The notes beneath the pieces are model-generated. The model did not search any database. It worked only from the letters and a program-made list of their open reading frames with translations, and had not been told where the DNA came from. The translations under genes were made by a program, and so were the position numbers. From an uncultured Planctomycetota bacterium (lineage in GTDB: Bacteria; Planctomycetota; B143-G9), in the NCBI GenBank assembly GCA_964571525.1, contig CAZNBY010000003.1, positions 40,308-104,307 of the forward strand: a stretch of 64,000 nucleotides of DNA. Direction: 5' to 3'. Below are positions 1 through 15,214 of the stretch, piece by piece (the first letter of the stretch is position 1; every line of letters begins with the position of its first letter).

Positions 1-796
1 AGCCGATACGGGTCTTCCAGTCGCGAAGCTCGGTGAAGGATGAGACGAGATCGGGCGATGTGATGATAAGGTAGTCAACATCGTTTGCATCAACTGGTGA
101 AAGCGGAGCCTTACCGTCAATCGGTGCTTCTAAAAGCGTCCTGCCAACTGGTGATAAATTCGGGAAAAACTCGGCCTGTGGATTAAGCGTTCTTGCTCTT
201 TCCTCGGCATAAAACGAGCTGAAATGCCTCTCCGGTGCAGTTGTGGGGTCTCCATCTATCTTGCAAGTAACCGTGATTGTCATTTCGGTCGCAATACGCA
301 ACACGCGCGATATTGGATTGTAAGCGAATTGGTGGGCGTAGAACGATACCTTCTTGATGCCGCGCCGCGTAGAAATCTCCGGTCTTCCGTGAAGTGCAGA
401 GGGATAGAAAGAGTCAATTCCGTAGATAGCGGCATCGGGTTGTGTGAACTCAAAAATCTCGTCACCCGCAACCGGTCTTTGCTTAGGACGAAGTGGGGCA
501 TCAAGCTGTATATCCGTATAGGTGGCAAGAATCTGAACCGTAGCTGCCGTGGTGCGAGTGTCAACTATAAACGACGCCAGCTTTGCGGGTAGCATTGGTG
601 CACCGACTGAGCCTGGGTAGAAGTAACCGGCTTCAACCGTGGGGGAGACGGTTGTATATCCATCGCGCACGGCGATTACATAGTCAGCCTTCGATATTGT
701 TATACGCGCAGATACGACGGACTCACCAAAGCCTGCCGTATAGCAGAATGCGCAGAACAACACCAAGACGAGCAAAATAAGATAGGGTCGTCTCAT
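1..796 (-). CDS. Secreted C25-type (gingipain-like) cysteine peptidase, N-terminal part; the window cuts the gene at its 3' side
   Basis: The reverse complement of 1..796 translates without a stop, starting at the ATG at 794-796 (MRRPYLILLVLVLFCAFCYTAGFGES...), so an N-terminal signal peptide is present. The end of the visible part reads ...DANDVDYLIITSPDLVSSFTELRDWKTRIG, which resembles the start of the catalytic domain of peptidase C25. The ORF track omits it because it runs off the window edge. Confidence 0.45.
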   Translation of the reverse strand, partial: MRRPYLILLVLVLFCAFCYTAGFGESVVSARITISKADYVIAVRDGYTTVSPTVEAGYFYPGSVGAPMLPAKLASFIVDTRTTAATVQILATYTDIQLDAPLRPKQRPVAGDEIFEFTQPDAAIYGIDSFYPSALHGRPEISTRRGIKKVSFYAHQFAYNPISRVLRIATEMTITVTCKIDGDPTTAPERHFSSFYAEERARTLNPQAEFFPNLSPVGRTLLEAPIDGKAPLSPVDANDVDYLIITSPDLVSSFTELRDWKTRIG

Positions 797-1070
797 CACA
801 AACGCTCCAGAATGATTGTGGGCATTCGATATTATAACAGCAATTTCAGAGTTACACTATTAACAATGAGACGCACAAATGGCACACTTGTTCGAAGCAG
901 AGTAGGGGGAGATGGCTTTTTCTGATGCTTATCTGCTCTGATGCCAATCTTGCCTTGCGCTTACAGTCATCAGGCAGGTTCTATTCAAGCAACAACCTGT
1001 AACAGGTCTGTACTATATAAGGTCACACGGATCTTATTAGCCTCTCGCACAACTTTGAAGCTTCTACAAG

Positions 1071-2384
1071 ATGCGTCTCACCCACTCTATATGGTTGGTG
1101 TTTATGCCGCATAACGCTTGTCTGACACATCGTTCTTGCCTTTTCGCATTGCTTCTATGTATGGTGTTCGCTTTTCAGTCGTTCGCATGGCCTGAGGAGT
1201 CAAAAAGGCTTAGCGATATTGAGGTCAATACATACAAGATTCCCTCTGTGGTTGGCGCATATAAAAAGCAGGGCAAGGAGGAGTTGAGAGAGATAGAGAT
1301 TGCCGACTTTTGGGTGCGAAGCGGCAGCAATCTGATTTTCACGCGAGGCGATTACGAGCAGACTGGCAAACTGCTCGTCTATTCCCTCAATACTCAGAAG
1401 AACGAGACAAGCTTGCTGCTCGAAATGACCGGTGTGCATGGTTATCTGCCCAACCGAAAGGGTTGGCTGTATATCTGTAGAGATGACGAAGAGGACGGCA
1501 GGATTATTGACAGGCGCGAGTATCGCGGTGGGTTTATCTGCAAAAGCTTCAGCTCGGTGTTGCCAAGTGACTCTCGCATAGTTAACTGGCATCGTGCCTC
1601 AAGCGAAAGTCGTTACGCCTGCCTTTACTCACCCGAGACGAAACAGCTTGGCATTTATGACATGGCGAAGCTGCTGCCGACCTATACGAAGATGCCAGAC
1701 AACATTGATATCCACATCGTTGACTCTTGCACCGATGACTATATCTACTTGCATGCGACAGAGTACGATAACGGAGCCGCATCGTACAAGCATCAGATGC
1801 TTATCAACGAGCAGGGGAAGTGGGTCGAAAGAGACTACAAGCACTACAACATGATGTTCGTCTTTCCCTACATCATCAAGTTCACACAAAGTGCAACCGA
1901 TACGGCGAGCCTTTCAGTGTCTGAAATTGGCAAGACGGAGGACAAGAACCTGACCGAGGCATCAATAAAACCGCCTTTCTTCGCCAAGGCGCTTCCCTCT
2001 GGCCTTATGCTTGTTTCGACAAACGGTCTTTCGCACAAGAAGGATGGTTTCACCTTAAAGGATAGGGACTTCGACTATTGGGTTCAGATGGCGAACGAGG
2101 AGTTTCCCCGTATGAAGGGAAACGCAAATGGTTTGCTGCTGGGTATAAGCCCCGAGGCGATTGTCTATCGCAGATCGAACGCGATCATTGTCAACACTCG
2201 CGAAGTTGCGCAGTTTAAGGGAAAGTTCGTATCCTTCGACTGGCTTGACAACACCCTGTTTATCGTATCAAAGGAGGATGAAGCTTACGAGCTAATCGTC
2301 ACAGAGATTAAGCTCCCTCACAAAATCCCATTCCTTCGCAACTCCATGCAAGGCTCTCATCCCCCCACCATTTGGTGCCAGTAG
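1071..2384 (+). CDS. Hypothetical secreted protein of 437 aa, no recognisable domain
   Basis: Long ORF whose N-terminus has a hydrophobic stretch (SCLFALLLCMVFAFQSFA) consistent with a signal peptide. It converges on the downstream operon, leaving only a 5-bp gap to the stop of the next gene. The start codon is uncertain. Confidence 0.5.
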   Translation: MRLTHSIWLVFMPHNACLTHRSCLFALLLCMVFAFQSFAWPEESKRLSDIEVNTYKIPSVVGAYKKQGKEELREIEIADFWVRSGSNLIFTRGDYEQTGKLLVYSLNTQKNETSLLLEMTGVHGYLPNRKGWLYICRDDEEDGRIIDRREYRGGFICKSFSSVLPSDSRIVNWHRASSESRYACLYSPETKQLGIYDMAKLLPTYTKMPDNIDIHIVDSCTDDYIYLHATEYDNGAASYKHQMLINEQGKWVERDYKHYNMMFVFPYIIKFTQSATDTASLSVSEIGKTEDKNLTEASIKPPFFAKALPSGLMLVSTNGLSHKKDGFTLKDRDFDYWVQMANEEFPRMKGNANGLLLGISPEAIVYRRSNAIIVNTREVAQFKGKFVSFDWLDNTLFIVSKEDEAYELIVTEIKLPHKIPFLRNSMQGSHPPTIWCQ

Positions 2385-2389
2385 GAGGA

Positions 2390-3652
2390 TTAGTCATTAA
2401 CCTCACCGTGTGGTGGTCTTGCTGCGAATATAATCAACTTTAGCTCTGTATCATCAATCAGTTCATAAATTGGCCTGATACCAGATAGTCTTTCGCTTTC
2501 AGTAATAATGATTGGCACACCCTCTCCGCGTTTGTCCATGATGAAGTTACGCCTGCAATCCTCGATTTGCGTTTTCAAAGGGCATCGCGCAAGCAATGAT
2601 GTCAACAGCTCATTTCTTGAAGACTGTCTTTCTGAAAGGCTGCTGATCGTCATTGTGTTAGGAATTGTGCCTGGTGAGAATATTTCGATGCGATCGGCGA
2701 ACATGTGTAATCTGATCTTCGATCCATATATCGAATAGTCTCTATGCGCAACCGCGTTTGTCACAGCCTCGAAGACTGCGTTCATGGAGTATTGCGGTAT
2801 TTCTCTCCTGTTTGGTGCCTTGATACCGAAGATGCGCATGTTCTTATTTACGAAGTCGCATGCCTTTGATATCTGAAAGTCCAACGGACCAGTTACTTCC
2901 TGTGCATCCAGTTGATATGACGCGTTCCGTTCAACACCACGATACGCGACTGCTTGAATGAAGGCGCTCTTAATGTATTCGTGAGGGGTTTTGCATGTCA
3001 TCAATATGCCGCTTACAGTCGGATAGATCTTTCCGTTTTCATCTCTTGTGACGAGACAAGCCTTTAATAGAAAATCCCGATCATCAACAGGCGACAACGG
3101 GGTTCTGAAGCGATTCCAAAGGTCATGTTCCATGCAATCGAGTGGTGCATTTGGAACAGATTGCTCATCAAATCTTATCAGGCGTACTTGGCTCCTTTGC
3201 TGGAACAATCTCGCAAGATAGTCTGGCGACATTTCACGCTTTGAGCTTCCTTGCCTGATGAAGTAACCATTTGGGCTTTTGTGCACAAACAGGCTTCTTG
3301 GTATCTCGATTTTGATTATTGACCTGAAAGTGCCTGTTGTATCGGGCAATTGCATTCGGAAAGTACGAAAGACTACCGGTGGCTTTATGCTGTCGCTGCA
3401 AACTTCGAAGACATACTTTTCTGCTGCTTCAAGGAGATCGGTTGGGATGCCCTCAATGTCGCGTGTCTTGTCGTTGACACCAAGCACGACGACAGCTTCG
3501 CATGTATTTGCGATCGCAGCGATTTCATCAGCAAGGTCACTCCTTGTCGGGTCTGACACGCTGTGGCCTTTGAAGCGTAACGATTTCAATTCGAGACTTG
3601 AATCCTCCCCGAGCCGAATTTTATCTAACAGATGTTCAGGGCTATCGAACAT
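2390..3652 (-). CDS. ATP-binding protein with a Schlafen-like AlbA_2 (divergent AAA) N-terminal domain and a C-terminal HATPase_c_4 domain, the family often annotated as a RecG-C-terminal-like transcriptional regulator
   Basis: The N-terminus (LELKSLRFKGHSVSDP...IAAIANTCEAVVVLGVND) has the architecture typical of AlbA_2/Schlafen divergent-AAA domains. The C-terminal region carries the motif AVTNAVAHRDYS characteristic of HATPase_c_4. Its start overlaps the stop of the upstream gene by 11 bp (3642-3652). Confidence 0.7.
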   Translation of the reverse strand: MFDSPEHLLDKIRLGEDSSLELKSLRFKGHSVSDPTRSDLADEIAAIANTCEAVVVLGVNDKTRDIEGIPTDLLEAAEKYVFEVCSDSIKPPVVFRTFRMQLPDTTGTFRSIIKIEIPRSLFVHKSPNGYFIRQGSSKREMSPDYLARLFQQRSQVRLIRFDEQSVPNAPLDCMEHDLWNRFRTPLSPVDDRDFLLKACLVTRDENGKIYPTVSGILMTCKTPHEYIKSAFIQAVAYRGVERNASYQLDAQEVTGPLDFQISKACDFVNKNMRIFGIKAPNRREIPQYSMNAVFEAVTNAVAHRDYSIYGSKIRLHMFADRIEIFSPGTIPNTMTISSLSERQSSRNELLTSLLARCPLKTQIEDCRRNFIMDKRGEGVPIIITESERLSGIRPIYELIDDTELKLIIFAARPPHGEVND

Positions 3653-6515
3653 TTCTGCCCTCCAGTGCTATGCGATCGTAACGCTGTTTGAAGGCTATCT
3701 CGCCCCCTTCCATGATGTCACATATTGTCTTGCGTACCTTTTCGACCTGAAGACAATCAGCAACACTCTGCTCAGTTTGACCTTGTTTTGCATCTAAGGC
3801 GACGACCAGTTCTGCATCGCCGTTAACAACGATATTTGCGTTGTGAGTTACGACAATAACTTGGCGATTAGGCTTTATACGGCGTAACTGCTCCACAATC
3901 AGATCATATATCAATCGGTTATCAAGATCATCTTCTGGTTGATCGAGAATCAAAGGTGAATCATCGTAAGAAAGAAAGAACGCGAGCAGCGTGGCAGTTT
4001 TCTGCCCTGGTGAACCGTCACTAATGGGGTTGTACTTACCATTAGATGAAAGGAAGCTGACTGCAATCGAGTCTTCTGGATACCAAAAAGCGAGCCTATC
4101 GAGCACTTCAGGTGACAACTTTGAAAGGTAGTTCGCAAAACGAAGGTCTTTCGCTGTTGTGTTTTGACCGTTCTTTGCATATTCCCTAATCGTGTCCTTG
4201 AACCTTTTTAGCTTCATTTCCATCTCGGTTCTGTCAGGATTGCCTTCATATAAATTATTAAAAAGACTATCAATATCCTTTGCGAATCTGTCCTGTTCCC
4301 TACCAATTAGTGTGCTGAAATTTCTCTCGCTCTCTTGTTTGTTGCCGAACAATTTGATTTCGATTCTAACAAATTTATTGTTTTTGCATATATCTTCAAC
4401 AGTTTTTCGCCTCATTTCTGTTAAATTATTGCGCATGTAGAAAATATTGCTTAGTATCTGCTCTGATTTGGCTTCAAGGTCTGCGATGATTATCTTGTTA
4501 GCTTCTTTCTCTTTTATCTGTTTTTCAATGGCCTGATGTTTCTGTATGAGAAATCCATATTCACTTGGATCTGATACGCCTTTTATCTTGAGTTGTTCTA
4601 TAAGGTTAAAGTGTGCGGTTTCTGTGTTCTTCACATTGCGTTGCCATTCGGATGCTAATCTGTCTTGCAGCCATTTTTCTGCTGCCGCTTCTGCACTTGA
4701 GGCGAGTTTGGATATGTTGAGGGATATCTCTTCAAAGACCTCTGCTGTTTTCTCTAAACGAGAAAGCAACTCACTTTCTTCTACTCGGCCAAGGTCGAAT
4801 GATGAACGGTCAAGTGTATCAGGCAATACTTCATTGCCTGTTTTTCTCAGTTTGCTGACAATGTCTGTTAGTCTGCTTTCCCATGACTCAAAAGCGCCTA
4901 CCTGTCTGCGACATCTTTGGTATTCCTTAAGCAGCTCTGAGTGTCCATGTTGCTCGAACACTTTAATCTTCTTCTGAATATCATCTAAATCACCCTTCAA
5001 ACGCGTGATTTCATCAATAGAAGCGGTGAGCTCGCGGATTTTTGCCCTTGTCGTTAAGTAGTTTCTCTCTGCAGCAACGCGTTCCTCCTCAAGTTCGCGA
5101 AAGCGTTGACTTGCTTCGTCAATCTTTTTAATCAGCGCCGATGGAACACCAGCGATCTGGAATATCTGCTTTTGGCTATATATGCTCGCGGGGAACCGTG
5201 AAGCAACATCTCCCTCACTCTTCTTCCATGTGCCATCGCTTTGCTCTTCCTCTATTGGATCCAGAGTGCCTTGCACATTCCATTGCACACGATATAGAAC
5301 TTGACCCTTTCGATAATAGACACGCACTACAGAATCGTTTCGCAAAAGCCCTGACTCATAGTCGTCTTTGGAACGCCTGTATTTAAGGAAGTCGCTTTTC
5401 ATTTCCTCTGGAAGCTCGTCCAACTCATTATCTCTGCGCAAGGCAACGCGAATAAGCTCTACAATTGTTGACTTGCCTGTCCCTCGTCCCCCAATAATCG
5501 CGTTCATACACGGATTGAAACTCAGCACAAAGGCCTTGTTGTTGCCTATATATTGTGCCCTTTCGATCTCGATTCGCTCGATATATGCTCCAGTATGATG
5601 GTTAAGATCGGAATCAGTTGAAACCTCGTCAAAACGCTTAACTGACATTTCTCCATCAAGAAGCGCTAACCTTAATCCTTCAATGCATGGAGTTCCCATC
5701 TTGACCCATGTGTAGTGGCTCCCTGGGTAGTTGCTGTGCTGCGATGAATCGGGATGATGCGAGTCTGAGCCAATTACAATCGTAGGTTTCTTGTTGGCTT
5801 CATAGAAAATCTTAGGGATATCCTTTTTGCGGTCAACTACTTCCATCGCATACAGCTTATCTTGTATGTTACTTGCGTCAGGACCTTTCATGCTGAACAA
5901 GCCAGCGTCTTTGTCAGAGTGCGCGGGAATAGGAATGCCGCCCGCTTTTTCAATCTCCCGAATCACTTCAATCATTGTCTTGGTCGTTGCATGCTCGCAA
6001 TACCCATTCTGCCCTTTATAACCAACTGCTCCAATCAGCTTGTTAATATCGCTTGTAGTGGTCTTTTGCCCAAATATAGCAAGTAGGTGTATGCCGCCCG
6101 ATACACTTATTTCGATACCGGGGAATAGGTATAGCTCGCGGTAGTCCTTGGGCTGCTCTGCTTTTAGCTTGCTGAGGGCTTGTTTCAGTATGTCTATGTG
6201 ATCGCCCGAGTTATGATCTGTTACTGCGACGCAGTCAATTTCAGCCTTCATGAAGCCAAGGAGCCAGTCTTTTGCAGTAATTTGCTTACTCGAAGTTTGG
6301 TGCGTTCCTTTTCCGTAATCACAAGAACTTGGTGTATGAGCATGGAAGTCGAACTTCCACCAACGAGCACCAACCCAGTTTATCTTGCTCATCTTATCCC
6401 CTTGCTTATAGGTCTGAACTGCGATTATATGGGCGTACTGTATCAGCGATTCGTCACCTATGTCAATAAACGCAGTTGTTGAGCGTATTGTGCTCCCTTG
6501 TGAATCAGGTACCAC
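3642..6515 (-). CDS. Fusion protein: N-terminal PHP-family phosphoesterase joined to a Rad50/SbcC/SMC-like ABC ATPase with a long coiled-coil insert (957 aa)
   Basis: PHP motifs are present: FDFHAHTPSS (HxH), VAVTDHNS, GIEIS, IPAHSD. Walker A is IIGGRGTGKSTIV. About 400 residues rich in heptad-like K/E/L/R sequence follow (coiled coil). The C-terminus carries an ABC signature-like SPGQKTATLLAF, Walker B LILDQPEDDLD, and an H-loop VIVVTHNANIV. Confidence 0.8.
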   Translation of the reverse strand: MVPDSQGSTIRSTTAFIDIGDESLIQYAHIIAVQTYKQGDKMSKINWVGARWWKFDFHAHTPSSCDYGKGTHQTSSKQITAKDWLLGFMKAEIDCVAVTDHNSGDHIDILKQALSKLKAEQPKDYRELYLFPGIEISVSGGIHLLAIFGQKTTTSDINKLIGAVGYKGQNGYCEHATTKTMIEVIREIEKAGGIPIPAHSDKDAGLFSMKGPDASNIQDKLYAMEVVDRKKDIPKIFYEANKKPTIVIGSDSHHPDSSQHSNYPGSHYTWVKMGTPCIEGLRLALLDGEMSVKRFDEVSTDSDLNHHTGAYIERIEIERAQYIGNNKAFVLSFNPCMNAIIGGRGTGKSTIVELIRVALRRDNELDELPEEMKSDFLKYRRSKDDYESGLLRNDSVVRVYYRKGQVLYRVQWNVQGTLDPIEEEQSDGTWKKSEGDVASRFPASIYSQKQIFQIAGVPSALIKKIDEASQRFRELEEERVAAERNYLTTRAKIRELTASIDEITRLKGDLDDIQKKIKVFEQHGHSELLKEYQRCRRQVGAFESWESRLTDIVSKLRKTGNEVLPDTLDRSSFDLGRVEESELLSRLEKTAEVFEEISLNISKLASSAEAAAEKWLQDRLASEWQRNVKNTETAHFNLIEQLKIKGVSDPSEYGFLIQKHQAIEKQIKEKEANKIIIADLEAKSEQILSNIFYMRNNLTEMRRKTVEDICKNNKFVRIEIKLFGNKQESERNFSTLIGREQDRFAKDIDSLFNNLYEGNPDRTEMEMKLKRFKDTIREYAKNGQNTTAKDLRFANYLSKLSPEVLDRLAFWYPEDSIAVSFLSSNGKYNPISDGSPGQKTATLLAFFLSYDDSPLILDQPEDDLDNRLIYDLIVEQLRRIKPNRQVIVVTHNANIVVNGDAELVVALDAKQGQTEQSVADCLQVEKVRKTICDIMEGGEIAFKQRYDRIALEGRNVR

Positions 6516-6695
6516 TCAGCAAATCTGGAACATGCAAACAGATGCACAATTACTTGCTGTTGATACGCAAACGAGGGTTGAATCTCCGAGCTTCATGTAC
6601 ACCAATGCTATACTACTCAGTATACCGAAAAATGCAACTTGATTGATGTTCGCTCTGTCGCGTTTTGAAACCGTGGCAATATCGCTTTTGCCCCG

Positions 6696-6728
6696 TAAAA
6701 ACGAAAAGGGCTGCATTGCTGCAGCCCT
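6696..6728 (-). terminator. Intrinsic terminator following the tRNA-Val/tRNA-Asp pair
   Basis: Perfect 9-bp inverted repeat agggctgca/tgcagccct (6707-6715 and 6720-6728) with loop ttgc. On the minus-strand transcript a T-rich tract follows (reverse complement of ccccgtaaaaacgaaaa). Confidence 0.55.
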
Positions 6729-6737
6729 GTATTTATC

Positions 6738-6814
6738 TGGCGAGGATGACGGGATTCGAACCCGCGACCTTCGGATCGACAGTCCGATGCTCTATCCAAT
6801 TGAGCTACATCCCC
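6738..6814 (-). tRNA. tRNA-Asp, anticodon GTC
   Basis: The reverse complement folds as a cloverleaf. Acceptor stem is GGGGATG/CATCCTC, discriminator G, and CCA is encoded. Anticodon stem TCGGA/TCCGA carries loop CTGTCGA. The T-loop is TTCGAAT. Confidence 0.85.
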
Positions 6815-6826
6815 GCAATTTGTAAA

Positions 6827-6903
6827 TGGTGGGCGATACCGGACTCGAACCAGTGACCCCTTGCTTGTAAGGCAAGTGCTCTAGCCGACTGAGCTAATCG
6901 CCC
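6827..6903 (-). tRNA. tRNA-Val, anticodon TAC
   Basis: Reverse complement is GGGCGATTAGCTCAGTCGGCTAGAGCACTTGCCTTACAAGCAAGGGGTCACTGGTTCGAGTCCGGTATCGCCCACCA. Acceptor stem is GGGCGAT/ATCGCCC and the anticodon loop is CTTACAA. Confidence 0.85.
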
Positions 6904-6976
6904 TTAACTCCTAAAATTCTACCCGTCTATAACGATTTGTCAAACCGTTTTTGCCAAAGTCAGCGCCGCGTTGTAG

Positions 6977-8095
6977 TTACAGATTGTAGTCGTCATCGTC
7001 GTCTGGCGGTGCGTCGAGGTTTAGTTTGCTGCGCATCTTCGCAGGTGACGCAATACGCCATGCTTCCGCAATTAGTGCCATCATTGCGGGTGGTTTTATG
7101 CCGATTTTTCCGCTTTCAGCCATTAACGCGGCAAGGTAGTCAAGGCCGGCATCTACTTTGCCAAGCTCGAAGCTGAGGCTCGTTGCCTGCGCAAGCGAGT
7201 TCATTAGCATAGGTATCTCGTTCAAATCGCGCGCCCGTTCGATGACTGTGTTAATAACCTCTATCGCCTTATCGGTTTGCCCGCTGTTTGCAAGCTGGGT
7301 GGAAAGCTGATCGAGCGACGAAAGGTGCGAGGGCAGGGCACCGATGTTTGCGAATAGCTGCCCAGCGGTCTTTGTTTGGGAAATTGCAGTATCGTCATCA
7401 CCTGCGTACTCAACGCAGCGACCATAGACGAGCCTGACATGCGCCTCATCCCACTTCCATCCCCTCTGATTCGCGATTGATACTGCTTTTACAAAATGCT
7501 GTTCTGCATCATCAAGGTCGCCGAAATGCGAAAGCTGTTCGGCGGCAAGCGCGATTGTCAACGGATCGTCGCACTGGTTCGCACATGAATTTGCTACTGT
7601 GAGCAGCAGATCCTCTGCACGCTCTGTCTCAACTACAAGCCCAAGGTTTCGCGCAGCAATTACAAGACCCTCGCACGCGGCAAGCTTAAGATGAGAAGGA
7701 GGCTCTGATTTTAGGGTGCGATATGCATGCGTGAAGTATGTTAACGCGGCTTCATCTTGTTGCATAATCTGAAGCAACTCGCCGCGCTTCAAATTCAGTT
7801 TGGTCTTCAGATCCGGTGGAACATCGTCGGGCGTTTCGAAACCCATTAAAGTGTTAAGCGCGTCAGAGTGCTTTCCTCCTGCCTGACTGATATCCGCGTG
7901 CAGAAGTATATACTCGATCTTGAGATCCGATGAGTTGGTCTCTATTTCGTTCGCGCAAGATTTGGCTTCAGCGAATCGCCCCATTCGAAGCAGTGCAGTG
8001 GCTCGCGCCCAACATCCAGAAAATGACTTTTCCTGAATGTTTGCAAGATCGGCAAACTGCCCTTTGTGAAGCATGTCGTCATACCGTTCTCTCAT
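6977..8095 (-). CDS. Hypothetical helical, TPR-like protein of 372 aa
   Basis: ORF overlapping the ScpA stop by 17 bp, so it lies in the same operon. Sequence is helical and repeat-like with an acidic C-terminal tail (DAPPDDDDDYNL). It shows no similarity to ScpB. Confidence 0.55.
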   Translation of the reverse strand: MRERYDDMLHKGQFADLANIQEKSFSGCWARATALLRMGRFAEAKSCANEIETNSSDLKIEYILLHADISQAGGKHSDALNTLMGFETPDDVPPDLKTKLNLKRGELLQIMQQDEAALTYFTHAYRTLKSEPPSHLKLAACEGLVIAARNLGLVVETERAEDLLLTVANSCANQCDDPLTIALAAEQLSHFGDLDDAEQHFVKAVSIANQRGWKWDEAHVRLVYGRCVEYAGDDDTAISQTKTAGQLFANIGALPSHLSSLDQLSTQLANSGQTDKAIEVINTVIERARDLNEIPMLMNSLAQATSLSFELGKVDAGLDYLAALMAESGKIGIKPPAMMALIAEAWRIASPAKMRSKLNLDAPPDDDDDYNL

Positions 8096-11320: not shown

Positions 11321-14300
11321 ATGAAATACGCATCGTTTTTGATCATTCTTCTTATGAGCTTTTGTCTTCTCGGTTTCGGCGAGAACGATAAAACCATAGA
11401 TCCACTGTACAGTTTGTTCGAGTCGCTGCCCGACTCTCCCAGTGAAGTCGAATTTGCTTCATTTCTCAATGAGGTGAAGAAGGTGGCGCATTTTAATCCT
11501 GGCATTCCATTCACTTTTAATGGTACATTTGAGACTTCACTGTACAAAATTCTCGGGCTCGGCGATTTCTACGACTCATACTTGCAGAACGACGAACGAA
11601 AATTGGAGCGCAGCCGTGAAAGCGAGGACATATCACTTACTCGCGACAAGCTGAAACAATACTTGCTGTGGAACAGCCTGCCAGCCCTCGTGCTGGAGAG
11701 TAACTGTACCGATCCGAAGAAGGACGACATCAACCTGCGCGTCTCATATTCCCTCTTCATCTGTCGGGCTTATCGTCAGCGGTACGCGGAATCTCTGTTA
11801 AACCCATTCACAAAGCAGATAGCGCAAACGGCAATTGAGGGGATCGAGAAATTCCCGATAAAGAACGATCTTGACAACCGGTATCAATCCTATATCGAAA
11901 ATCGAGCGAATCAGCTTGAAATCGCAGGTGATAACCTTCAGCAGCAGATAGCATCCGTAATGAAACTGGCAAACGAAAAGTCCGGCGATTACCTCTATCT
12001 AATCACCCTGTTGCACTGGTTGGAGTTGAACATTCCGGCAGAGGCGATTTTCGTCAAACCGATTCCGAATGAGATTCTCCTTGAAGTTGACCATTACGAT
12101 TGCTACAGCATAGTGCATGAGTACGTGCAGTCCTGGGTTTTCGGCGATCTCGACAAGCTGTTCATTCCGGACAACGGCGAGCGAATCTTCCGCGATCGTA
12201 CTCCCGGAGTAAACCTGCTTCTTGTATTCGTTGGCTCGTTTCTCGTCGATGCGATCATGAACAGAGAAGACGGCATTGCTGCGCGAAACAGTATACTCTT
12301 CCGATTTCATATAGGAGTCGGCAATCATTTCGATTATTGTGGCTGGCCCAGTTCATTTCTCAATCGATATTCCCGCTACATCAAAGAGTGTCGGCTTGAG
12401 AGAACCTATGGTCAATATGGTAACAGCACTCAGCCGCGACATTTTTTGAAGCTTGTGGAGGAGAGCGAAGGGGCTTCCTGTTGGTTTATCGGCAACTATG
12501 TTCCGGCAACCGAAATCGGCTCAAGAAGAGTGGAAAGCGATTTTGTATATCCGATAATCAAGCCTGTATGTCATCCAAGGTACCAGGGATTTCTGGACGG
12601 TATTGAGAGCGATGCAAAGGAGATCCGGGAATTGCTTGGAAGCACAGATTCGTTCGAATGGAACAAATACTACAGTATAAAAGAACACGATATCGAGCGA
12701 GAATACCCCATCGAACAAACGGTCCATCACAAGTACACCCTTGCTGGGGCTGCAGAGCATCTTGCCGATGGATGGCTCGAGAAAATCATGTTCGGACATG
12801 CAAAGTACAGCGAACCTGTCGAGAAGACCGTTCAACGCCTGGATCGCGCGGTCTATTACCATTACGCGAAGACAAGACTTAGGGTATATCAGATGGCATC
12901 ACCCGGGCCGGTCAGCGATATGTTCTATCCTGTTTTCTACGTTGAAGTTACCCCGGATGCAAGCGTAAGGCCGGATGAGTGTCTCGCTTCTTACATTGTG
13001 AAGGGTAAAGATTGGGTAAGACGCACCAATATTCATTCACTTGCTTATGACTGGTGGTGTCTGGAGCTTGTGGGGTACGATTGGTACAAGGAAAAGCGCA
13101 AGCAGGTTGAAGACCTTGCAGTGAAAGCCAACGCGGATTTTGAAAAGGACTCCAGAGCAACAAACGAAGCAAACTGGAAATGGTCAAGTGAACGTAATGG
13201 AAAATCGATGGAATCCAAGGCGGTTGTGGATCCGGATGCTCCAACTACCGAAGAACTGAAGGCTCATTTCGAAAGAGTCTATATTGAGTATCGCCAGGCT
13301 ATCGAGCAGTTGCCTGACGAGCCTGATGAGAATGATAAGAGGATTTTCTTCGACAAAATGAAGAGCATTCTGAAACTGGTGCCTTCCGCACCGTCAGCCG
13401 TTCGATCAGGACTACCCTGGACAACTCCCCCCTCCGCGTACTGTTTATCTTTCTTCTGTATTCCGGAAATGATGTTAGGTATGCCATTTATGAGACATAC
13501 TCACTTCGCCAGTTCCGTCGGACACACTATTTCCACAACAACGAAAAAGGACTTCTTCATAGAAACCTGCTTTGTAAGACTGCTTCTTGAGGGGGAATTC
13601 GAGCGGAGAATGCTGAGAAACCAAAGTCTGAAGTACTATCTCAAGGATGAAAAAGCCCTTGAGGAATACCGATATCAGGCAGCATTTATCCTGATGGGAT
13701 TGTTGCGACTGCGTGAAAACGCCCTCATTCGCGAGGATCTGCGGGAATCGCATACCCTGCAGATGGCCGAACTCGACAACCTTGACGCAAAATACAAACT
13801 CACAGAACGGTACATGCAATCAGTTAAAGAAACTGAGAAACGCCTTGATTTAGCATCGCTTCCAAACGAAGTTGTGATAAAAAGGCTGAAATCATTTCTT
13901 TTTCCCGGCGACAAGCATTTGCCAGAGCTAACGGCAATGTTGAACTGGTTGTTTTCCACTTGCCCCAACAGTCTGTTTCTGGATGCCGAACCACCAGATG
14001 TTATCCCGGTCAAGGATATCGTCAAATACAATACACTGTTGAGCAGATATGTCAAACCTGATTATCTCAACCAGAAGAAGAACTCCTGGTCAGACAGAAG
14101 AGGCAGAACAATCGCATCTCCGCTTCAGATAGTCACAGATATCAGAGTGCTATCGACGTTCTTCCCGTGTATCATCAATGGCGAAGACGCGAGTCTTCTT
14201 CGAAGCACATATTTTGCGAATGCATTCGGTATGACGATGGGAGACGGAATCGCATTCAATACACTGCGTATTCTTACTACCGGCGAGGCGCAGAAATCGC

Positions 14301-15214
14301 TCGACAAAATCTACAAGACATCGATTTTGCCGACTTGGAAGATGGCCTTTGAAGCGTGTGAGACGCCTGAGTTCAATGCAACAGTAATCAGGGAAGGAAA
14401 GCTCAAGGACATTTGGCTCCCGCTGTACGTAAAAACCACTGAACCGATCGGCACATTCACAAGCGACGACGCATATCCTATTCCTGTGCTATTCTCGCAT
14501 GGACGGGACGAATTCACAAATGCGCTTCTCGACGAGAAAGGTTCAGCGTTCTCTTTCTACAAATCTACGAATGTACTAAAGCAGGATTTTTCACAAAACA
14601 CGAATGATACCTCTGTAAGGCGGTACAAGTGCCCACTCAGACTGAATGTGCCGTACGATTTTTCCACCGACGCATTGGCAGTGAGAACGGTTACGACAGA
14701 GCCATGGGAGAGTCCAATACCTGGTTTGTCGGACGAGCAGTTTTCTGGTCTCATGAAGGGAGTCAAAACTAATATTTACGAACGCGTGGTGTTTGCACAC
14801 TACCCAAGCGTGACCTGGAAGGCTTTCTCAAGCAAGGAAAACTTTTCTCCATTATTGAGGAAACCCGGTAGATACAGTAACTTTGTGGCATATTCTATCC
14901 TGCCGGGTGAAGATGATGTGCCAGATCAATTTGTCCCTGGGATGCTGAATTCTTCAGGCAACGGTCTATTCGATAGGGCTGTTCCACAATCCAATGGACA
15001 GTATATCTACCCGCATATTCTCAGAATTCGGGAAAATCCTACTTGCCAGGCCATGCTTGACACTGGCGACGAATTGCTTGAAGAAGTCAGGAAACTCGCA
15101 AGATTGGAAACAGAGAACATCAGTGAGAAGAAGCGTGAACTGTGGGAAGAATGGGGAGGACGCGGCGATTTCATATACTGGTTGTTTGATATGCCGATCT
15201 GGTCGGGGGAATGA
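11321..15214 (+). CDS. Large secreted hypothetical protein of 1297 aa
   Basis: Signal peptide MKYASFLIILLMSFCLLGFG. No recognisable catalytic motif. It shares a conserved core of about 150 aa with the downstream 642-aa protein (HFLKLVEESEGASCWFIGNYVPATEIGSRRVESDFVYPII against QFELLKEGETGPAYFIGMHSPCNERGAEFIETDSIYPIL). Confidence 0.7.
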   Translation: MKYASFLIILLMSFCLLGFGENDKTIDPLYSLFESLPDSPSEVEFASFLNEVKKVAHFNPGIPFTFNGTFETSLYKILGLGDFYDSYLQNDERKLERSRESEDISLTRDKLKQYLLWNSLPALVLESNCTDPKKDDINLRVSYSLFICRAYRQRYAESLLNPFTKQIAQTAIEGIEKFPIKNDLDNRYQSYIENRANQLEIAGDNLQQQIASVMKLANEKSGDYLYLITLLHWLELNIPAEAIFVKPIPNEILLEVDHYDCYSIVHEYVQSWVFGDLDKLFIPDNGERIFRDRTPGVNLLLVFVGSFLVDAIMNREDGIAARNSILFRFHIGVGNHFDYCGWPSSFLNRYSRYIKECRLERTYGQYGNSTQPRHFLKLVEESEGASCWFIGNYVPATEIGSRRVESDFVYPIIKPVCHPRYQGFLDGIESDAKEIRELLGSTDSFEWNKYYSIKEHDIEREYPIEQTVHHKYTLAGAAEHLADGWLEKIMFGHAKYSEPVEKTVQRLDRAVYYHYAKTRLRVYQMASPGPVSDMFYPVFYVEVTPDASVRPDECLASYIVKGKDWVRRTNIHSLAYDWWCLELVGYDWYKEKRKQVEDLAVKANADFEKDSRATNEANWKWSSERNGKSMESKAVVDPDAPTTEELKAHFERVYIEYRQAIEQLPDEPDENDKRIFFDKMKSILKLVPSAPSAVRSGLPWTTPPSAYCLSFFCIPEMMLGMPFMRHTHFASSVGHTISTTTKKDFFIETCFVRLLLEGEFERRMLRNQSLKYYLKDEKALEEYRYQAAFILMGLLRLRENALIREDLRESHTLQMAELDNLDAKYKLTERYMQSVKETEKRLDLASLPNEVVIKRLKSFLFPGDKHLPELTAMLNWLFSTCPNSLFLDAEPPDVIPVKDIVKYNTLLSRYVKPDYLNQKKNSWSDRRGRTIASPLQIVTDIRVLSTFFPCIINGEDASLLRSTYFANAFGMTMGDGIAFNTLRILTTGEAQKSLDKIYKTSILPTWKMAFEACETPEFNATVIREGKLKDIWLPLYVKTTEPIGTFTSDDAYPIPVLFSHGRDEFTNALLDEKGSAFSFYKSTNVLKQDFSQNTNDTSVRRYKCPLRLNVPYDFSTDALAVRTVTTEPWESPIPGLSDEQFSGLMKGVKTNIYERVVFAHYPSVTWKAFSSKENFSPLLRKPGRYSNFVAYSILPGEDDVPDQFVPGMLNSSGNGLFDRAVPQSNGQYIYPHILRIRENPTCQAMLDTGDELLEEVRKLARLETENISEKKRELWEEWGGRGDFIYWLFDMPIWSGE

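What the first reader, a model, noticed from the sequence alone, without database searches (positions are those of the whole stretch)
2390..6515. Two-gene operon beside tRNA-Asp pairing a PHP-nuclease/Rad50-like ATPase fusion with a Schlafen-like ATP-binding protein; a candidate undescribed defence or DNA-surveillance module
The two genes overlap by 11 bp (3642-3652), which indicates translational coupling and points to a functional pair. The 957-aa product fuses a PHP phosphoesterase (FDFHAHTP, VAVTDHNS, IPAHSD) to an ABC ATPase of the Rad50/SbcC/SMC class: Walker A GGRGTGKST, a roughly 400-aa coiled coil, signature SPGQK, Walker B ILDQPEDDLD, and an H-loop VVTHNAN. The 420-aa partner has an AlbA_2/Schlafen-like domain plus a HATPase_c_4 domain. 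Several named defence families pair an ABC/SMC-like ATPase with a nuclease (OLD/Gabija, Septu, PARIS, Lamassu/DdmABC, Wadjet), and Schlafen-like domains recur in immunity proteins. I cannot match this pair to any of those families from memory. The system sits in the first gene position next to the 3' end of a tRNA and in an AT-rich patch, which is the classic setting of a defence island.
Basis: partly seen in the sequence, partly recalled or inferred. Interest (0 to 1): 0.8.

Follow-up and report, generated by a model that had tools for sequence, protein, structure and literature searches.

The report
Ppl-like nuclease paired with bacterial Schlafen
The two overlapping genes are real and form a widely conserved pair, but both belong to known anti-phage families (a Ppl/TrlF-type PHP nuclease-ATPase and a stand-alone Schlafen-GHKL "Schlatpase"), so only their obligate pairing looks new.

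Summary
In detail: two minus-strand genes overlap by 11 nt next to tRNA-Asp, in the lowest-GC stretch of the window. The large gene probably starts at ATG 6395, giving 917 aa.

It is not an undescribed protein. It is a full-length member of NCBIfam "TrlF family AAA-like ATPase" (613 bits, cut-off 350). It is collinear with, and 28% identical to, the E. coli anti-phage protein Ppl, a published NTP-inhibited 3'-5' ssDNA exonuclease that senses 3'-OH ends.

The 420-aa partner is a stand-alone Schlafen + GHKL-ATPase protein ("Schlatpase", or pSlfn-HisKinase). Its Schlafen nuclease motif and its GHKL ATP site are both conserved.

The apparently new part is the pairing. In 62 of 76 assessable TrlF loci, spread over many phyla, this partner sits directly downstream; in 46 of them the genes overlap. 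The two proteins' divergence is correlated (r = 0.82). About a quarter of pairs lie inside BREX loci.

Characterised Ppl and the enterobacterial TrlF clade are single genes. I found no paper linking Ppl/TrlF to Schlafen, but two key papers could not be read.

Verdict: a new two-gene variant of a known kind, probably a DNA-end/NTP sensor-exonuclease coupled to a Schlafen nuclease. Function is untested.

The parts
3642..6395 (-). trlF-like gene, 917 aa. It encodes a PHP nuclease fused to a Rad50/SMC-like ABC ATPase. The longest ORF extends to GTG 6515, but ATG 6395 is the probable start.
   Evidence: NCBIfam NF045780 TrlF scores 612.9 bits against a cut-off of 350, full length. PADLOC Ppl E 3.3e-135. 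28% identity end to end with E. coli Ppl, E 2e-108. Homologue lengths are 915-925 aa.
5601..6374 (-). PHP phosphoesterase (nuclease) domain, residues about 8-265.
5142..5588 (-). N-terminal half of the ABC ATPase head (Walker A GGRGTGKST, Q-loop).
   Evidence: K308 is kept in 83/83 and Q408 in 83/83. SMC and Rad50 heads match by sequence and by fold.
4386..5141 (-). Antiparallel coiled-coil insertion, residues about 419-670. It coincides with the GC minimum of 0.37-0.39.
   Evidence: The AF2 model (pLDDT 81.3) shows long helices at 430-482, 486-522, 538-581, 583-604 and 612-670. No CxxC hook is present. GC profile.
3642..4385 (-). C-terminal half of the ABC head (signature SPGQK, Walker B LDQPEDDLD, D-loop, H-loop VVTHNAN), including the stop codon.
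   Evidence: Pfam SMC_N and AAA_21 hits. S795, G797, D818, E821, D825 and H851 are kept in 83/83. Aligns with P. furiosus Rad50.
3658..3663 (-). GGAGGG Shine-Dalgarno-like motif for the partner gene, encoded within TrlF codons L-E-G.
   Evidence: Read directly from the sequence. An SD-like motif lies 4-20 nt upstream of the partner start in 48 of 60 loci.
3642..3652 (-). 11-nt overlap between the TrlF stop and the partner start (ATGTTCGATAG).
   Evidence: In homologous loci the same junction overlaps by 8-17 nt in 46 of 62 cases and abuts within 5 nt in the other 16.
2390..3652 (-). Partner gene, 420 aa. It encodes a stand-alone Schlafen (AlbA_2) + GHKL ATPase protein (Schlatpase / pSlfn-HisKinase) with no C-terminal HTH.
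   Evidence: Pfam SLFN_AlbA_2 E 1.6e-14 and HATPase_c_4 E 4.7e-18. PADLOC pAgo/Aga models match the same module. Foldseek: 3LMM for the whole protein, SLFN13/14/5/11 for the N-domain. TrlF-linked partners are 401-435 aa.
3227..3607 (-). Schlafen nuclease-lobe domain, residues 16-142.
   Evidence: E16, K23 and D61 are >=97% conserved and E21 90-97% conserved in 59 TrlF-linked partners. In profile alignments, E16 and E21 pair with SLFN14 E206 and the E211A position; D61 aligns with the second D of the SLFN 'GVDD' motif (D249 by my numbering, from memory).
2441..2725 (-). GHKL (Bergerat-fold) ATP-binding domain, Pfam residues 310-404. The N-box E295-x3-N299 lies just upstream.
   Evidence: E295, N299, H303, R304, D305, Y306 and S326-P327-G328 are >=97% conserved. 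The E...N spacing matches E314/N318 of RzAgo, which coordinate ATP gamma-phosphate and Mg.
6437..6466 (-). Promoter-like site TTGACA-18 nt-(TG)TACAGT upstream of ATG 6395. AAGGGG at about 6402-6407 could serve as the ribosome-binding site.
   Evidence: This is a consensus match only. The count of such sites in the region is not above the shuffled expectation.
6707..6728 (-). Terminator-like hairpin plus T-run that ends the tRNA-Val/tRNA-Asp unit. It marks the upstream boundary of the module.
   Evidence: tRNAs.

Best explanation
This is a horizontally acquired two-gene anti-phage module in the chromosome of an uncultured Planctomycetota-like bacterium.

Gene 1 (TrlF family) is a Ppl-type enzyme. 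It has an N-terminal PHP metal-dependent nuclease fused to a Rad50/SMC-like ABC ATPase, whose two head halves are separated by a coiled coil of about 250 aa. By homology with E. coli Ppl, it most likely dimerises through ATP-engaged heads. NTPs would hold it off. It would become active on DNA with free 3'-OH ends when phage replication drains the nucleotide pool, and would then degrade DNA 3'-5'.

Gene 2 is translationally coupled to gene 1. It encodes a stand-alone Schlatpase: a Schlafen nuclease lobe plus a GHKL ATPase. By analogy with SLFN-pAgo, the GHKL domain assembles the Schlafen lobes into an active oligomer in an ATP-dependent way, and the Schlafen site cleaves RNA, most likely tRNA.

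I propose that the two form one complex. In it, TrlF is the DNA-end/nucleotide sensor and DNA effector. It licenses the Schlafen nuclease as a second, translation-blocking (abortive) effector.

Shown here: family membership, intact catalytic motifs in both proteins, a conserved coupled gene pair, and defence-locus contexts.

Inferred: physical complex formation, which protein senses and which executes, the substrate of the Schlafen domain, and the phenotype.
For: Family and homology:
- TrlF equivalog 612.9 bits (cut-off 350); PADLOC Ppl E 3.3e-135.
- Collinear with E. coli Ppl at 28% identity.
- All PHP and ABC catalytic residues are conserved, including in Ppl.

Ppl mechanism from the literature:
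[quoted passage not shown] Source: review PMC12904381, summarising Xu et al. 2026 Mol Cell 86:180, which is cited in PMC13434339.

Partner:
- AlbA_2 + HATPase_c_4 domains.
- Schlafen fold.
- E16-x4-E21-x-K23...D61 and the GHKL N-box E295/N299 are conserved in 59 TrlF-linked partners. E16/E21 align with SLFN14 E206/E211.
- In SLFN-pAgo the same SLFN+GHKL module tetramerises on ATP and cleaves tRNA.
- Bacterial Schlafens are phage-activated tRNases (PMC13056530; PMC13462974).

Coupling:
- The partner lies directly downstream in 62 of 76 assessable genome loci from many phyla. 46 overlap by 8-17 nt.
- An SD-like motif lies within TrlF's last codons in 48 of 60 loci.
- Mirror-tree r = 0.82, Mantel 0/999.
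- On an NJ tree the paired state is spread across the family, and solos are one tight clade plus scattered tips.

Defence context:
- 14 of 58 pairs lie within BREX loci, mostly directly between pglX and pglZ; others lie next to type II/III methyltransferases.
- Solo relatives sit on conjugative plasmids beside RM systems.

Acquisition:
- The pair has the lowest GC in the window.
Against: - No experiment exists for any member of the paired TrlF clade. Only Ppl (28% identical, single gene) has been tested.
- Ppl and the enterobacterial TrlF clade work, or at least exist, without any partner. The Schlatpase is therefore not intrinsically needed by this fold.
- The association is asymmetric. Of the 74 assessable closest Schlatpase homologues, only 23 (31%) have a TrlF gene upstream. 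The rest sit in heterogeneous contexts.
- The window's partner is most similar (60-63%) to partners of a TrlF clade that is only 34% identical to the window's TrlF. This indicates module exchange rather than strict co-descent.
- The AF2 model of the partner is only moderate (pLDDT 69.7, with the GHKL part poorly defined). No complex prediction could be run.
- In this window there are no other defence genes, no integrase and no att repeat.
- tRNA as the substrate is pure analogy.
Confidence: 0.68

Rival explanations
1. TrlF is the only effector, and the Schlatpase is a regulatory or adaptor subunit. It would act as an ATP-gated switch, a nucleic-acid-binding specificity factor, or a brake (antitoxin-like) on the PHP nuclease. 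It would not act as an RNase that kills the cell.
For: - Ppl alone suffices for defence and is itself nucleotide-regulated.
- GHKL domains are ATP-driven conformational switches.
- Sources annotate these proteins as 'predicted HTH transcriptional regulator' or 'DNA binding domain-containing protein'.
- AlbA-like folds bind nucleic acids; Alba hits appear.
- Of seven tested bacterial Schlafens, only the DUF262 and Ig-like fusions gave defence. Stand-alone Slfn-HisKinase proteins therefore showed no autonomous effector activity in that panel.
Against: - The Schlafen catalytic motif E-x4-E-x-K plus D61 is 90-100% conserved in TrlF-linked partners. That would be unexpected for a purely structural role.
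- This partner lacks the C-terminal HTH (420 aa; partners are 401-435 aa).
- In every studied bacterial case the Schlafen domain is the nuclease effector.
Confidence: 0.17
2. These are two independent single-gene defence systems, a Ppl-like nuclease and a pSlfn-HisKinase. They are often neighbours only because defence genes cluster.
For: - Each family exists on its own. Examples are solo TrlF/Ppl and Schlatpases without TrlF in 51 of 74 loci.
- Extra diverged Schlatpase paralogues occur near some loci.
- Schlafen-HisKinase genes are described as independent 'backup effectors' in BREX loci (PMC12839542).
Against: - Island clustering does not produce a fixed order, the same strand and 8-17-nt overlaps in 46 of 62 loci across more than 15 phyla.
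- It also does not explain an SD embedded in the upstream gene's conserved C-terminal codons, or correlated divergence of the two proteins (r = 0.82).
- No other neighbour is recurrent: 458 neighbours fall into 370 clusters.
Confidence: 0.1
3. This is a housekeeping DNA-repair or end-processing machine analogous to SbcCD/Mre11-Rad50, with the PHP domain replacing Mre11. It would be unrelated to immunity.
For: The ABC head and coiled coil resemble Rad50, SMC and RecN. PHP domains act as proofreading and repair nucleases in PolX, PolC and EndoQ.
Against: - The distribution is patchy and crosses phylum boundaries, and the GC is atypical.
- Relatives are plasmid-borne (1136 plasmid records).
- Only 17 of 5426 complete E. 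coli genomes carry the enterobacterial clade.
- Pairs are embedded in BREX and RM loci.
- The nearest characterised relative is an anti-phage protein.
Confidence: 0.03

Closest known systems
Ppl, the E. coli single-gene anti-phage system (Vassallo et al. 2022 from memory; mechanism in Xu et al. 2026 Mol Cell 86:180, known to me only through PMC12904381 and PMC13434339)
   Same: It has the same end-to-end architecture: PHP nuclease, ABC head half, coiled coil, ABC head half. BLASTP alignment is collinear (E 2e-108). All PHP and ABC catalytic residues are shared. It therefore probably shares NTP-inhibited 3'-5' exonuclease activity on 3'-OH ends.
   Different: Identity is only 28%. The NCBIfam Ppl model scores 552 bits against a cut-off of 1000, and the PADLOC Ppl model scores 450 bits against 1826 for real Ppl. 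Ppl has no downstream Schlafen gene, whereas the window's protein is translationally coupled to one.
TrlF family AAA-like ATPase (NCBIfam NF045780), as annotated on Klebsiella and E. coli conjugative plasmids and in a few E. coli chromosomes
   Same: The window protein is a member by the curated cut-off (612.9 versus 350 bits) and is 42-44% identical.
   Different: The enterobacterial and plasmid clade is solo, for example next to a type II RM system. It forms one tight clade nested among partner-bearing lineages. No function has been published under this name that I could find.
Schlatpase supradomain of SLFN-pAgo (RzAgo; bioRxiv 10.64898/2026.05.29.728809)
   Same: It has the same two Pfam domains in the same order (PF04326 + PF13749), the same E(x)4(D/E)xK nuclease motif and the same GHKL E...N ATP site. 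PADLOC pAgo models match residues 40-398 of the partner.
   Different: There the module is fused to an Argonaute sensor. Here it is a separate 420-aa protein whose conserved neighbour is a PHP-ABC ATPase. That paper reports stand-alone Schlatpases and links to RM systems but no PHP/ABC partner.
Bacterial Schlafen defence nucleases: pSlfn (RorSlfn5, EcoSlfn7; PMC13056530) and CRISPR-associated Cash (PMC13462974)
   Same: They share the Schlafen nuclease lobe and catalytic motif. They follow the effector-plus-sensor logic, and the known output is tRNA cleavage. The partner has the 'HisKinase' architecture, which is the commonest class at 34%.
   Different: In those systems the sensor is fused in the same polypeptide (Ig-like, DUF262, Csx15). 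Here the candidate sensor is a separate, co-translated protein. The HisKinase-class proteins tested alone gave no protection in that study.
Mre11-Rad50 / SbcCD
   Same: Both combine a Rad50-like ABC head with an antiparallel coiled coil and a metal-dependent nuclease that acts on DNA ends.
   Different: Here the nuclease has a PHP fold and is fused in cis, rather than being an Mre11 phosphodiesterase in trans. The coiled coil is short (about 250 aa) and has no zinc hook. The distribution is that of a mobile defence gene.
   Same: The general logic is the same: an ABC-type ATPase sensor coupled to a nuclease. PARIS also ends in tRNA cleavage.
   Different: PADLOC matches to GajA, PtuA, AriA and LmuB cover only the Walker A or signature/Walker B stretches, at E 1e-5 to 1e-11. 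The nucleases differ (TOPRIM, HNH, Cap4 and others versus PHP and Schlafen). The module is not a member of any of these systems.
Hma-like context (helicase + N6-methylase + ATPase), named from memory
   Same: A TrlF-family protein (35% identical) is the third gene after a DEAD/DEAH helicase and an N6 DNA methylase on E. coli IncF plasmids.
   Different: The partners differ and there is no Schlafen gene. This shows that the PHP-ABC protein is a module used with several partner sets. SNF2 helicases follow it in L020, L027 and L029.

Membership tests
TrlF family AAA-like ATPase (NCBIfam NF045780) | Whole-protein score above the curated equivalog cut-off, with full-length coverage. | tested here: met
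   612.9 bits against a cut-off of 350. Residues 49-949 of the 957-aa ORF match profile positions 2-943 of 944.
Ppl anti-phage protein (NCBIfam NF042955 / PADLOC PDLC02208) | Score above the curated equivalog cut-off (1000 bits). | tested here: not met
   552.2 bits. The PADLOC Ppl model gives 450 bits, against 1826 for E. coli Ppl. Identity to Ppl is 28%.
Ppl anti-phage protein (NCBIfam NF042955 / PADLOC PDLC02208) | PHP nuclease + ABC ATPase architecture with intact catalytic residues. | tested here: met
   The alignment is collinear over 917 and 891 aa. The residue sets are identical in Ppl and the window protein.
Ppl anti-phage protein (NCBIfam NF042955 / PADLOC PDLC02208) | Autonomous single-gene system. 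| tested here: not met
   The window gene overlaps a conserved partner gene. E. coli ppl has no such neighbour.
Ppl anti-phage protein (NCBIfam NF042955 / PADLOC PDLC02208) | NTP-inhibited 3'-5' ssDNA exonuclease activity and phage protection. | not testable with these tools
   This needs biochemistry and phage assays.
PHP (polymerase and histidinol phosphatase) superfamily | PHP barrel fold with the conserved H/D/E metal-binding set. | tested here: met
PHP (polymerase and histidinol phosphatase) superfamily | Match to Pfam PF02811. | tested here: not met
   It was not reported at E <= 0.01. hhalign against the window's own DnaE PHP domain gives E 0.16. NCBIfam CehA/McbA gives E 4e-10 but scores below its cut-off.
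Rad50/SMC-class ABC ATPases | Walker A, Q-loop, signature, Walker B, D-loop and H-loop, with a coiled coil inserted between the head halves. | tested here: met
Rad50/SMC-class ABC ATPases | Zinc hook (CxxC) or hinge at the coiled-coil apex. | tested here: not met
   The only cysteine inside the coiled coil is C495, which lies in a helix, and C670 sits at its end. There is no CxxC and no hinge domain.
Bacterial Schlafen nucleases (pSlfn) | AlbA_2/Schlafen nuclease lobe with the E-x4-(D/E)-x-K motif. | tested here: met
   Pfam PF04326 E 1.6e-14. Foldseek matches SLFN13, SLFN14, SLFN5 and SLFN11. E16, E21, K23 and D61 are conserved, and E16/E21 are in register with SLFN14 E206/E211.
Bacterial Schlafen nucleases (pSlfn) | Trigger-dependent tRNA cleavage. 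| not testable with these tools
   This rests only on analogy to RorSlfn5, RzAgo and Cash.
Schlatpase supradomain (SLFN + GHKL ATPase) | PF04326 followed by PF13749, with the GHKL E...N ATP/Mg site. | tested here: met
   E295 and N299 are >=97% conserved.
Schlatpase supradomain (SLFN + GHKL ATPase) | ATP-driven tetramerisation that builds the active nuclease. | not testable with these tools
   Only a monomer AF2 model could be made, and its GHKL part has low confidence.
tRNA-integrated genomic (defence) island | Integrase and a direct repeat of the tRNA 3' end at the far boundary. | tested here: not met
   No tRNA-derived repeat occurs in 1-7000. No integrase lies between the tRNA and the window start, or in the 10 kb beyond it in L001.
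tRNA-integrated genomic (defence) island | Atypical composition and neighbouring known defence genes. | tested here: inconclusive
   The pair has the lowest GC in the window. However, none of the seven neighbouring proteins tested hits PADLOC. Many homologous loci are inside BREX or RM loci.
Gabija / Septu / PARIS / Lamassu / Wadjet | Full-length match to the system's ATPase, plus the cognate nuclease or partner genes. | tested here: not met
   There are only short P-loop or signature-region matches. The partner gene matches none of their components.

The most novel reading that the evidence does not exclude
The TrlF-Schlatpase operon is a widespread two-component immune system that has not yet been described. 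In it, an SMC/Rad50-like PHP exonuclease that reads DNA ends and nucleotide levels licenses a separate Schlafen nuclease. On this reading the two-gene form is the ancestral and dominant form of the Ppl family, and single-gene Ppl is a derived exception. It would also supply the missing sensor for the most abundant class of bacterial Schlafens (Slfn-HisKinase), which has no demonstrated function so far. Finally, it would explain the 'BREX-associated Schlafen' as half of a two-gene cassette.
Probability: 0.35. Interest if true: 0.75.

Novelty: new variant of a known kind. Interest (0 to 1): 0.55.

Why it matters
Ppl has so far been studied as a single-gene system from E. coli plasmids. In this sample, across Acidobacteriota, Desulfobacterota, Latescibacterota, Poribacteria, Myxococcota, Planctomycetota and other phyla, four of five members of the sister TrlF family carry a co-translated Schlafen-GHKL partner. 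The model system may therefore be the atypical case.

Slfn-HisKinase proteins are also the commonest bacterial Schlafens, yet no trigger or phenotype is known for them. A fixed partner that is a known DNA-end/NTP sensor gives a directly testable hypothesis for how they are switched on.

If the link holds, it would connect DNA-end sensing by an SMC-like machine to a Schlafen nuclease. That echoes human SLFN11, which responds to replication stress by cleaving tRNA; I recall this from memory and did not test it here.

On the practical side, annotation pipelines would probably label such loci 'Ppl' and miss the second gene.

Tried and rejected
- Origin of the name TrlF. Two literature searches found nothing relevant, so this remains unresolved.
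- Primary Ppl mechanism paper (Xu et al. 2026) and the ABC-ATPase classification (Krishnan et al. 2020, NAR 48:10045). Neither is held. Either could already mention the Schlafen neighbour, so novelty is stated with that caveat.
- Papers containing both 'Schlafen' and 'Ppl' or 'PHP'. The searches found none that were relevant.
- Vassallo preprint. It contains no Ppl, Hma or PHP terms.
- Sequence search of the PDB for a Ppl structure. It found only Rad50 and SMC.
- N-terminal 280 aa against the PDB by phmmer. Nothing useful came back.
- tRNA-derived att repeats. None were found.
- A universal third gene. It was rejected because 458 neighbours fall into 370 clusters.
- Phage carriage. The seven IMG/VR hits are all solo TrlF, and INPHARED phages give only partial ABC matches. 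The partner matches a PHROG annotated as 'DNA helicase', which is the old RecG-C-terminal misnomer.
- PADLOC scan of the 89 immediate neighbours. It matched 157 models. I ran no matched control set, so I do not quote an enrichment statistic.
- Synteny comparison with close relatives lacking the insertion.
- Complex prediction. This was not possible with the tools offered.

Full report
**1. The observation**

The window holds two minus-strand ORFs, 6515..3642 (957 aa from GTG) and 3652..2390 (420 aa). They overlap by 11 nt. tRNA-Asp (6738-6814) and tRNA-Val (6827-6903) lie upstream on the same strand.

The tRNA unit has its own promoter-like site. It ends in a hairpin plus T-run at 6728-6707.

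The large gene probably starts at ATG 6395, giving 917 aa. The closest 120 relatives are about 914-933 aa long, and their alignments start at that methionine. AAGGGG precedes that ATG.

The junction reads CTGGAGGGCAGAAATGTTCGATAG. A GGAGGG Shine-Dalgarno-like motif is thus encoded by the last codons of gene 1, and the partner's ATG lies 8 nt before the start of gene 1's stop codon.

The pair has GC 0.446. That is the lowest of all 240 windows of 4.1 kb (mean 0.482, sd 0.013). The minimum (0.37-0.39) coincides with the Lys/Glu-rich coiled coil.

The host is chromosomal and Planctomycetota-like. dnaE and guaA lie 20 kb away, and GuaA is 79% identical to 'Ca. Brocadiia bacterium'. The same locus occurs in three SRA assemblies and in a 186-kb NCBI contig.

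**2. The large protein**

It is a full-length member of NCBIfam NF045780, 'TrlF family AAA-like ATPase' (612.9 bits, cut-off 350). It hits the PADLOC Ppl model at E 3.3e-135. The curated Ppl equivalog gives 552 bits, below its cut-off of 1000.

Bona fide E. coli Ppl (WP_015059139, from an IncF plasmid) aligns end to end at 28% identity, E 2e-108. The two are therefore sister families with one architecture.

The PHP metal-ligand set and every ABC motif are conserved in 79-83 of 83 family members, apart from three conservatively substituted positions (T306, P796, K799); Ppl shares the full PHP set and all but the second Q-loop position.

An AF2 model (pLDDT 81.3) shows three parts:
- an ABC head that matches Smc, Rad50, RecF and JetC;
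- a helical insertion of about 250 residues (419-670) with no CxxC hook.

Pfam's PHP model itself does not fire.

[quoted passage not shown] NTPs bound to both domains inhibit it. Phage-induced NTP depletion together with 3'-OH ends made by phage homing endonucleases activates it. This comes from the review PMC12904381, which summarises Xu et al. 2026, a paper I know only from its citations. A phage counter-defence gene is also known (PMC11482910).

**3. The partner**

Pfam finds SLFN_AlbA_2 (residues 16-142) and HATPase_c_4 (310-404).

Foldseek on an AF2 model (pLDDT 69.7 overall, N-domain about 90) matches the whole protein to 3LMM. It matches the N-domain to the nuclease lobe of SLFN13, SLFN14, SLFN5 and SLFN11 and to the SAMD9 tRNase.

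In 59 TrlF-linked partners, E16, K23 and D61 are at least 97% conserved and E21 is 90-97% conserved. Profile alignments put E16 and E21 in register with SLFN14 E206 and the E211A position. D61 aligns with the second D of the SLFN 'GVDD' motif; the number D249 is my recollection.

The GHKL N-box E295-x3-N299 is also conserved. It corresponds to E314/N318 of RzAgo, which hold the ATP gamma-phosphate and Mg.

This SLFN+GHKL combination has been named the 'Schlatpase' supradomain. It occurs in 58.6% of 103,533 prokaryotic Schlafen proteins, mostly as small stand-alone proteins. In SLFN-pAgo, ATP binding drives tetramerisation and the Schlafen site cleaves tRNA.

In another survey the same architecture ('HisKinase') is the commonest bacterial Schlafen class at 34%. 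Of the seven constructs tested there, only a DUF262 fusion and an Ig-like fusion protected.

TrlF-linked partners are uniformly 401-435 aa and lack the C-terminal HTH seen in many relatives.

**4. Is the pair conserved?**

A profile scan of one genome per species returned 80 TrlF loci at 37-50% identity. They come from Acidobacteriota, Desulfobacterota, Latescibacterota, Rhodothermales, Myxococcota, Poribacteria, Chloroflexota, Gammaproteobacteria and other groups.

In 62 of them a homologue of the 420-aa protein (41-60% identical) starts at the TrlF stop. Of these, 58 are intact, one is cut by a contig end and three are truncated or disrupted. Four loci have too little downstream sequence to judge, so the rate is 62 of 76, or 82%.

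In 46 loci the genes overlap by 8-17 nt. In the other 16 they abut within 5 nt. An SD-like motif lies within TrlF's last codons in 48 of 60 loci. This explains why the C-terminal 'ALEG' of TrlF is nearly invariant.

Pairwise identities of the two proteins correlate across 72 pairs (r = 0.82; Mantel 0/999).

On an NJ tree rooted with Ppl, the paired state is spread across the whole family. Solos are one tight clade plus scattered tips. That clade covers Hafnia, Pectobacterium, Klebsiella and E. coli plasmids, and some Desulfobulbus and spirochaete MAGs.

Some solos have other neighbours:
- an SNF2-family helicase at +6 or +54 nt (L020, L027, L029);
- PglZ (L033);
- an AAA_21 ATPase (L046);
- on E. 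coli IncFIA plasmids, a helicase + N6-methylase + TrlF trio.

**5. The reverse test tempers this**

I examined 80 metagenomic loci holding the closest Schlatpase homologues (58-64% identical). Only 23 of the 74 assessable ones have a TrlF gene directly upstream, and those TrlFs are just 31-35% identical to the window's.

TrlF is still by far the most frequent upstream neighbour. The next cluster has six members, and the rest are mostly singletons. They include OLD, GmrSD, AAA_21, another Schlatpase and housekeeping genes.

So TrlF nearly always has this partner, but this Schlatpase lineage is not confined to TrlF. The window's partner is also closer to partners of a distant TrlF clade than to partners of its nearest TrlFs. 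That points to module exchange.

**6. Defence context**

There is no universal third gene: 458 neighbours fall into 370 clusters.

In 14 of 58 loci the pair lies within a BREX locus, in most of them directly between pglX and pglZ. PADLOC confirms PglX, BrxC, PglZ, BrxL and BrxA at E = 0 to 1e-99. Two BREX types are involved. Others lie beside type II/III methyltransferases.

Published surveys note Schlafen-HisKinase genes tightly linked to BREX: at least 1017 taxa in PMC12839542 and 'cluster 2' in PMC13462974. Neither mentions a PHP-ABC neighbour.

Solo relatives are common on conjugative plasmids (1136 records), for example beside a type II RM system. They are rare in E. coli chromosomes, with 17 of 5426 genomes carrying one.

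In the window itself the pair is isolated. The seven neighbouring proteins tested have no PADLOC hit. There is no integrase and no tRNA-derived repeat.

**7. Mechanism**

The steps shown are family membership, intact active sites in all four enzymatic domains, co-translation signals and co-variation.

The steps inferred are as follows. TrlF behaves like Ppl: ATP/NTP-gated and activated by 3'-OH ends. The partner assembles through its GHKL domain and uses the Schlafen site on RNA, probably tRNA. TrlF licenses it within one complex.

The main rival is that the partner is a regulator or adaptor of a TrlF-only effector.

The reading of two unrelated neighbours is hard to reconcile with the fixed overlapping junction across phyla. 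A housekeeping-repair reading conflicts with the patchy, mobile and BREX-embedded distribution.

**8. Comparison and novelty**

The locus is a member of the TrlF family. It is a relative of Ppl, but not a member by the curated cut-off. Its partner is a member of the Schlafen/Schlatpase class. It is not Gabija, Septu, PARIS, Lamassu or Wadjet.

I found no paper in the searchable library that links Ppl/TrlF or a PHP domain with bacterial Schlafens. Two potentially relevant papers could not be read.

I therefore rate it a new variant of a known kind. The interest is moderate. It lies in the pairing and in what the pairing implies for both families, not in either protein alone.

Noticed in passing
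L086 (E. coli IncFIA plasmid NZ_CP097428) 308-7856: A TrlF-family gene (35% identical to the window's) is the third gene of a contiguous same-strand trio: DEAD/DEAH helicase, N6 DNA methylase, TrlF. This looks like the Hma system, a name I recall from memory. PADLOC v2 labels the parts only as type I REase, MTase and Ppl.
   Followed up: partly
L020 3394-6195; L027 9949-12864; L029 (same arrangement): Some partner-less TrlF genes are followed 6-54 nt downstream by an SNF2-family helicase of about 950 aa. This may be an alternative partner.
   Followed up: partly
L079 12831-15492; L072 12792-16518; L040 3104-3589: In three genomes the Schlafen partner is split by an insertion of 1.4-2.5 kb or is truncated after about 160 aa, while TrlF stays intact. 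This may be decay of the partner, or counter-selection against it.
   Followed up: no
L080 3561-4772, 14093-16079; L063 8648-9829, 14210-15814; L054 4309-5585; L072 8540-9679: Additional Schlatpase paralogues (mostly 25-31% identical to the window's partner; one, L080 3561-4772, 44%) lie within a few kb of the TrlF pair. Several Schlafen-GHKL genes can therefore cluster in one locus.
   Followed up: no
window 2390-3652 compared with L090, L099, L104-L111, L120, L124, L130 and others: The window's partner is 60-63% identical to partners whose TrlF is only about 34% identical to the window's TrlF. It is just 55-60% identical to partners of TrlFs that are 46-50% identical. This suggests the partner module has been exchanged between TrlF clades.
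   Followed up: partly
window 1071-2384 (+): A convergent ORF of 407-437 aa has a signal-peptide-like N-terminus. Its stop lies 5 nt from the partner's stop. It has no Pfam, NCBIfam, PADLOC or PHROG hit, and it is conserved with the locus in all three SRA assemblies.
   Followed up: partly
window 32108-61422: There are four giant ORFs (2241, 1936, 1886 and 1596 aa), a 1297-aa ORF at 11321-15214 with no PADLOC hit, and a 642-aa ORF at 15554-17482 with no PADLOC or Pfam hit. Beyond the window start, L001 carries an 1841-aa Peptidase_C25/PKD-repeat protein. Large surface proteins of this kind are typical of Planctomycetota.
   Followed up: no
window 2390-3652: The partner matches phrog_12156, annotated 'DNA helicase' (E 1e-44), and sources call its relatives 'ATP-dependent DNA helicase RecG'. 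This is the old RecG-C-terminal misnomer for the GHKL domain. It also shows that relatives occur in phage genomes.
   Followed up: no
L167-L173 (IMG/VR contigs): Seven viral or proviral contigs carry TrlF-family genes, three of them from the enterobacterial 42% clade. All lack the Schlafen partner.
   Followed up: partly
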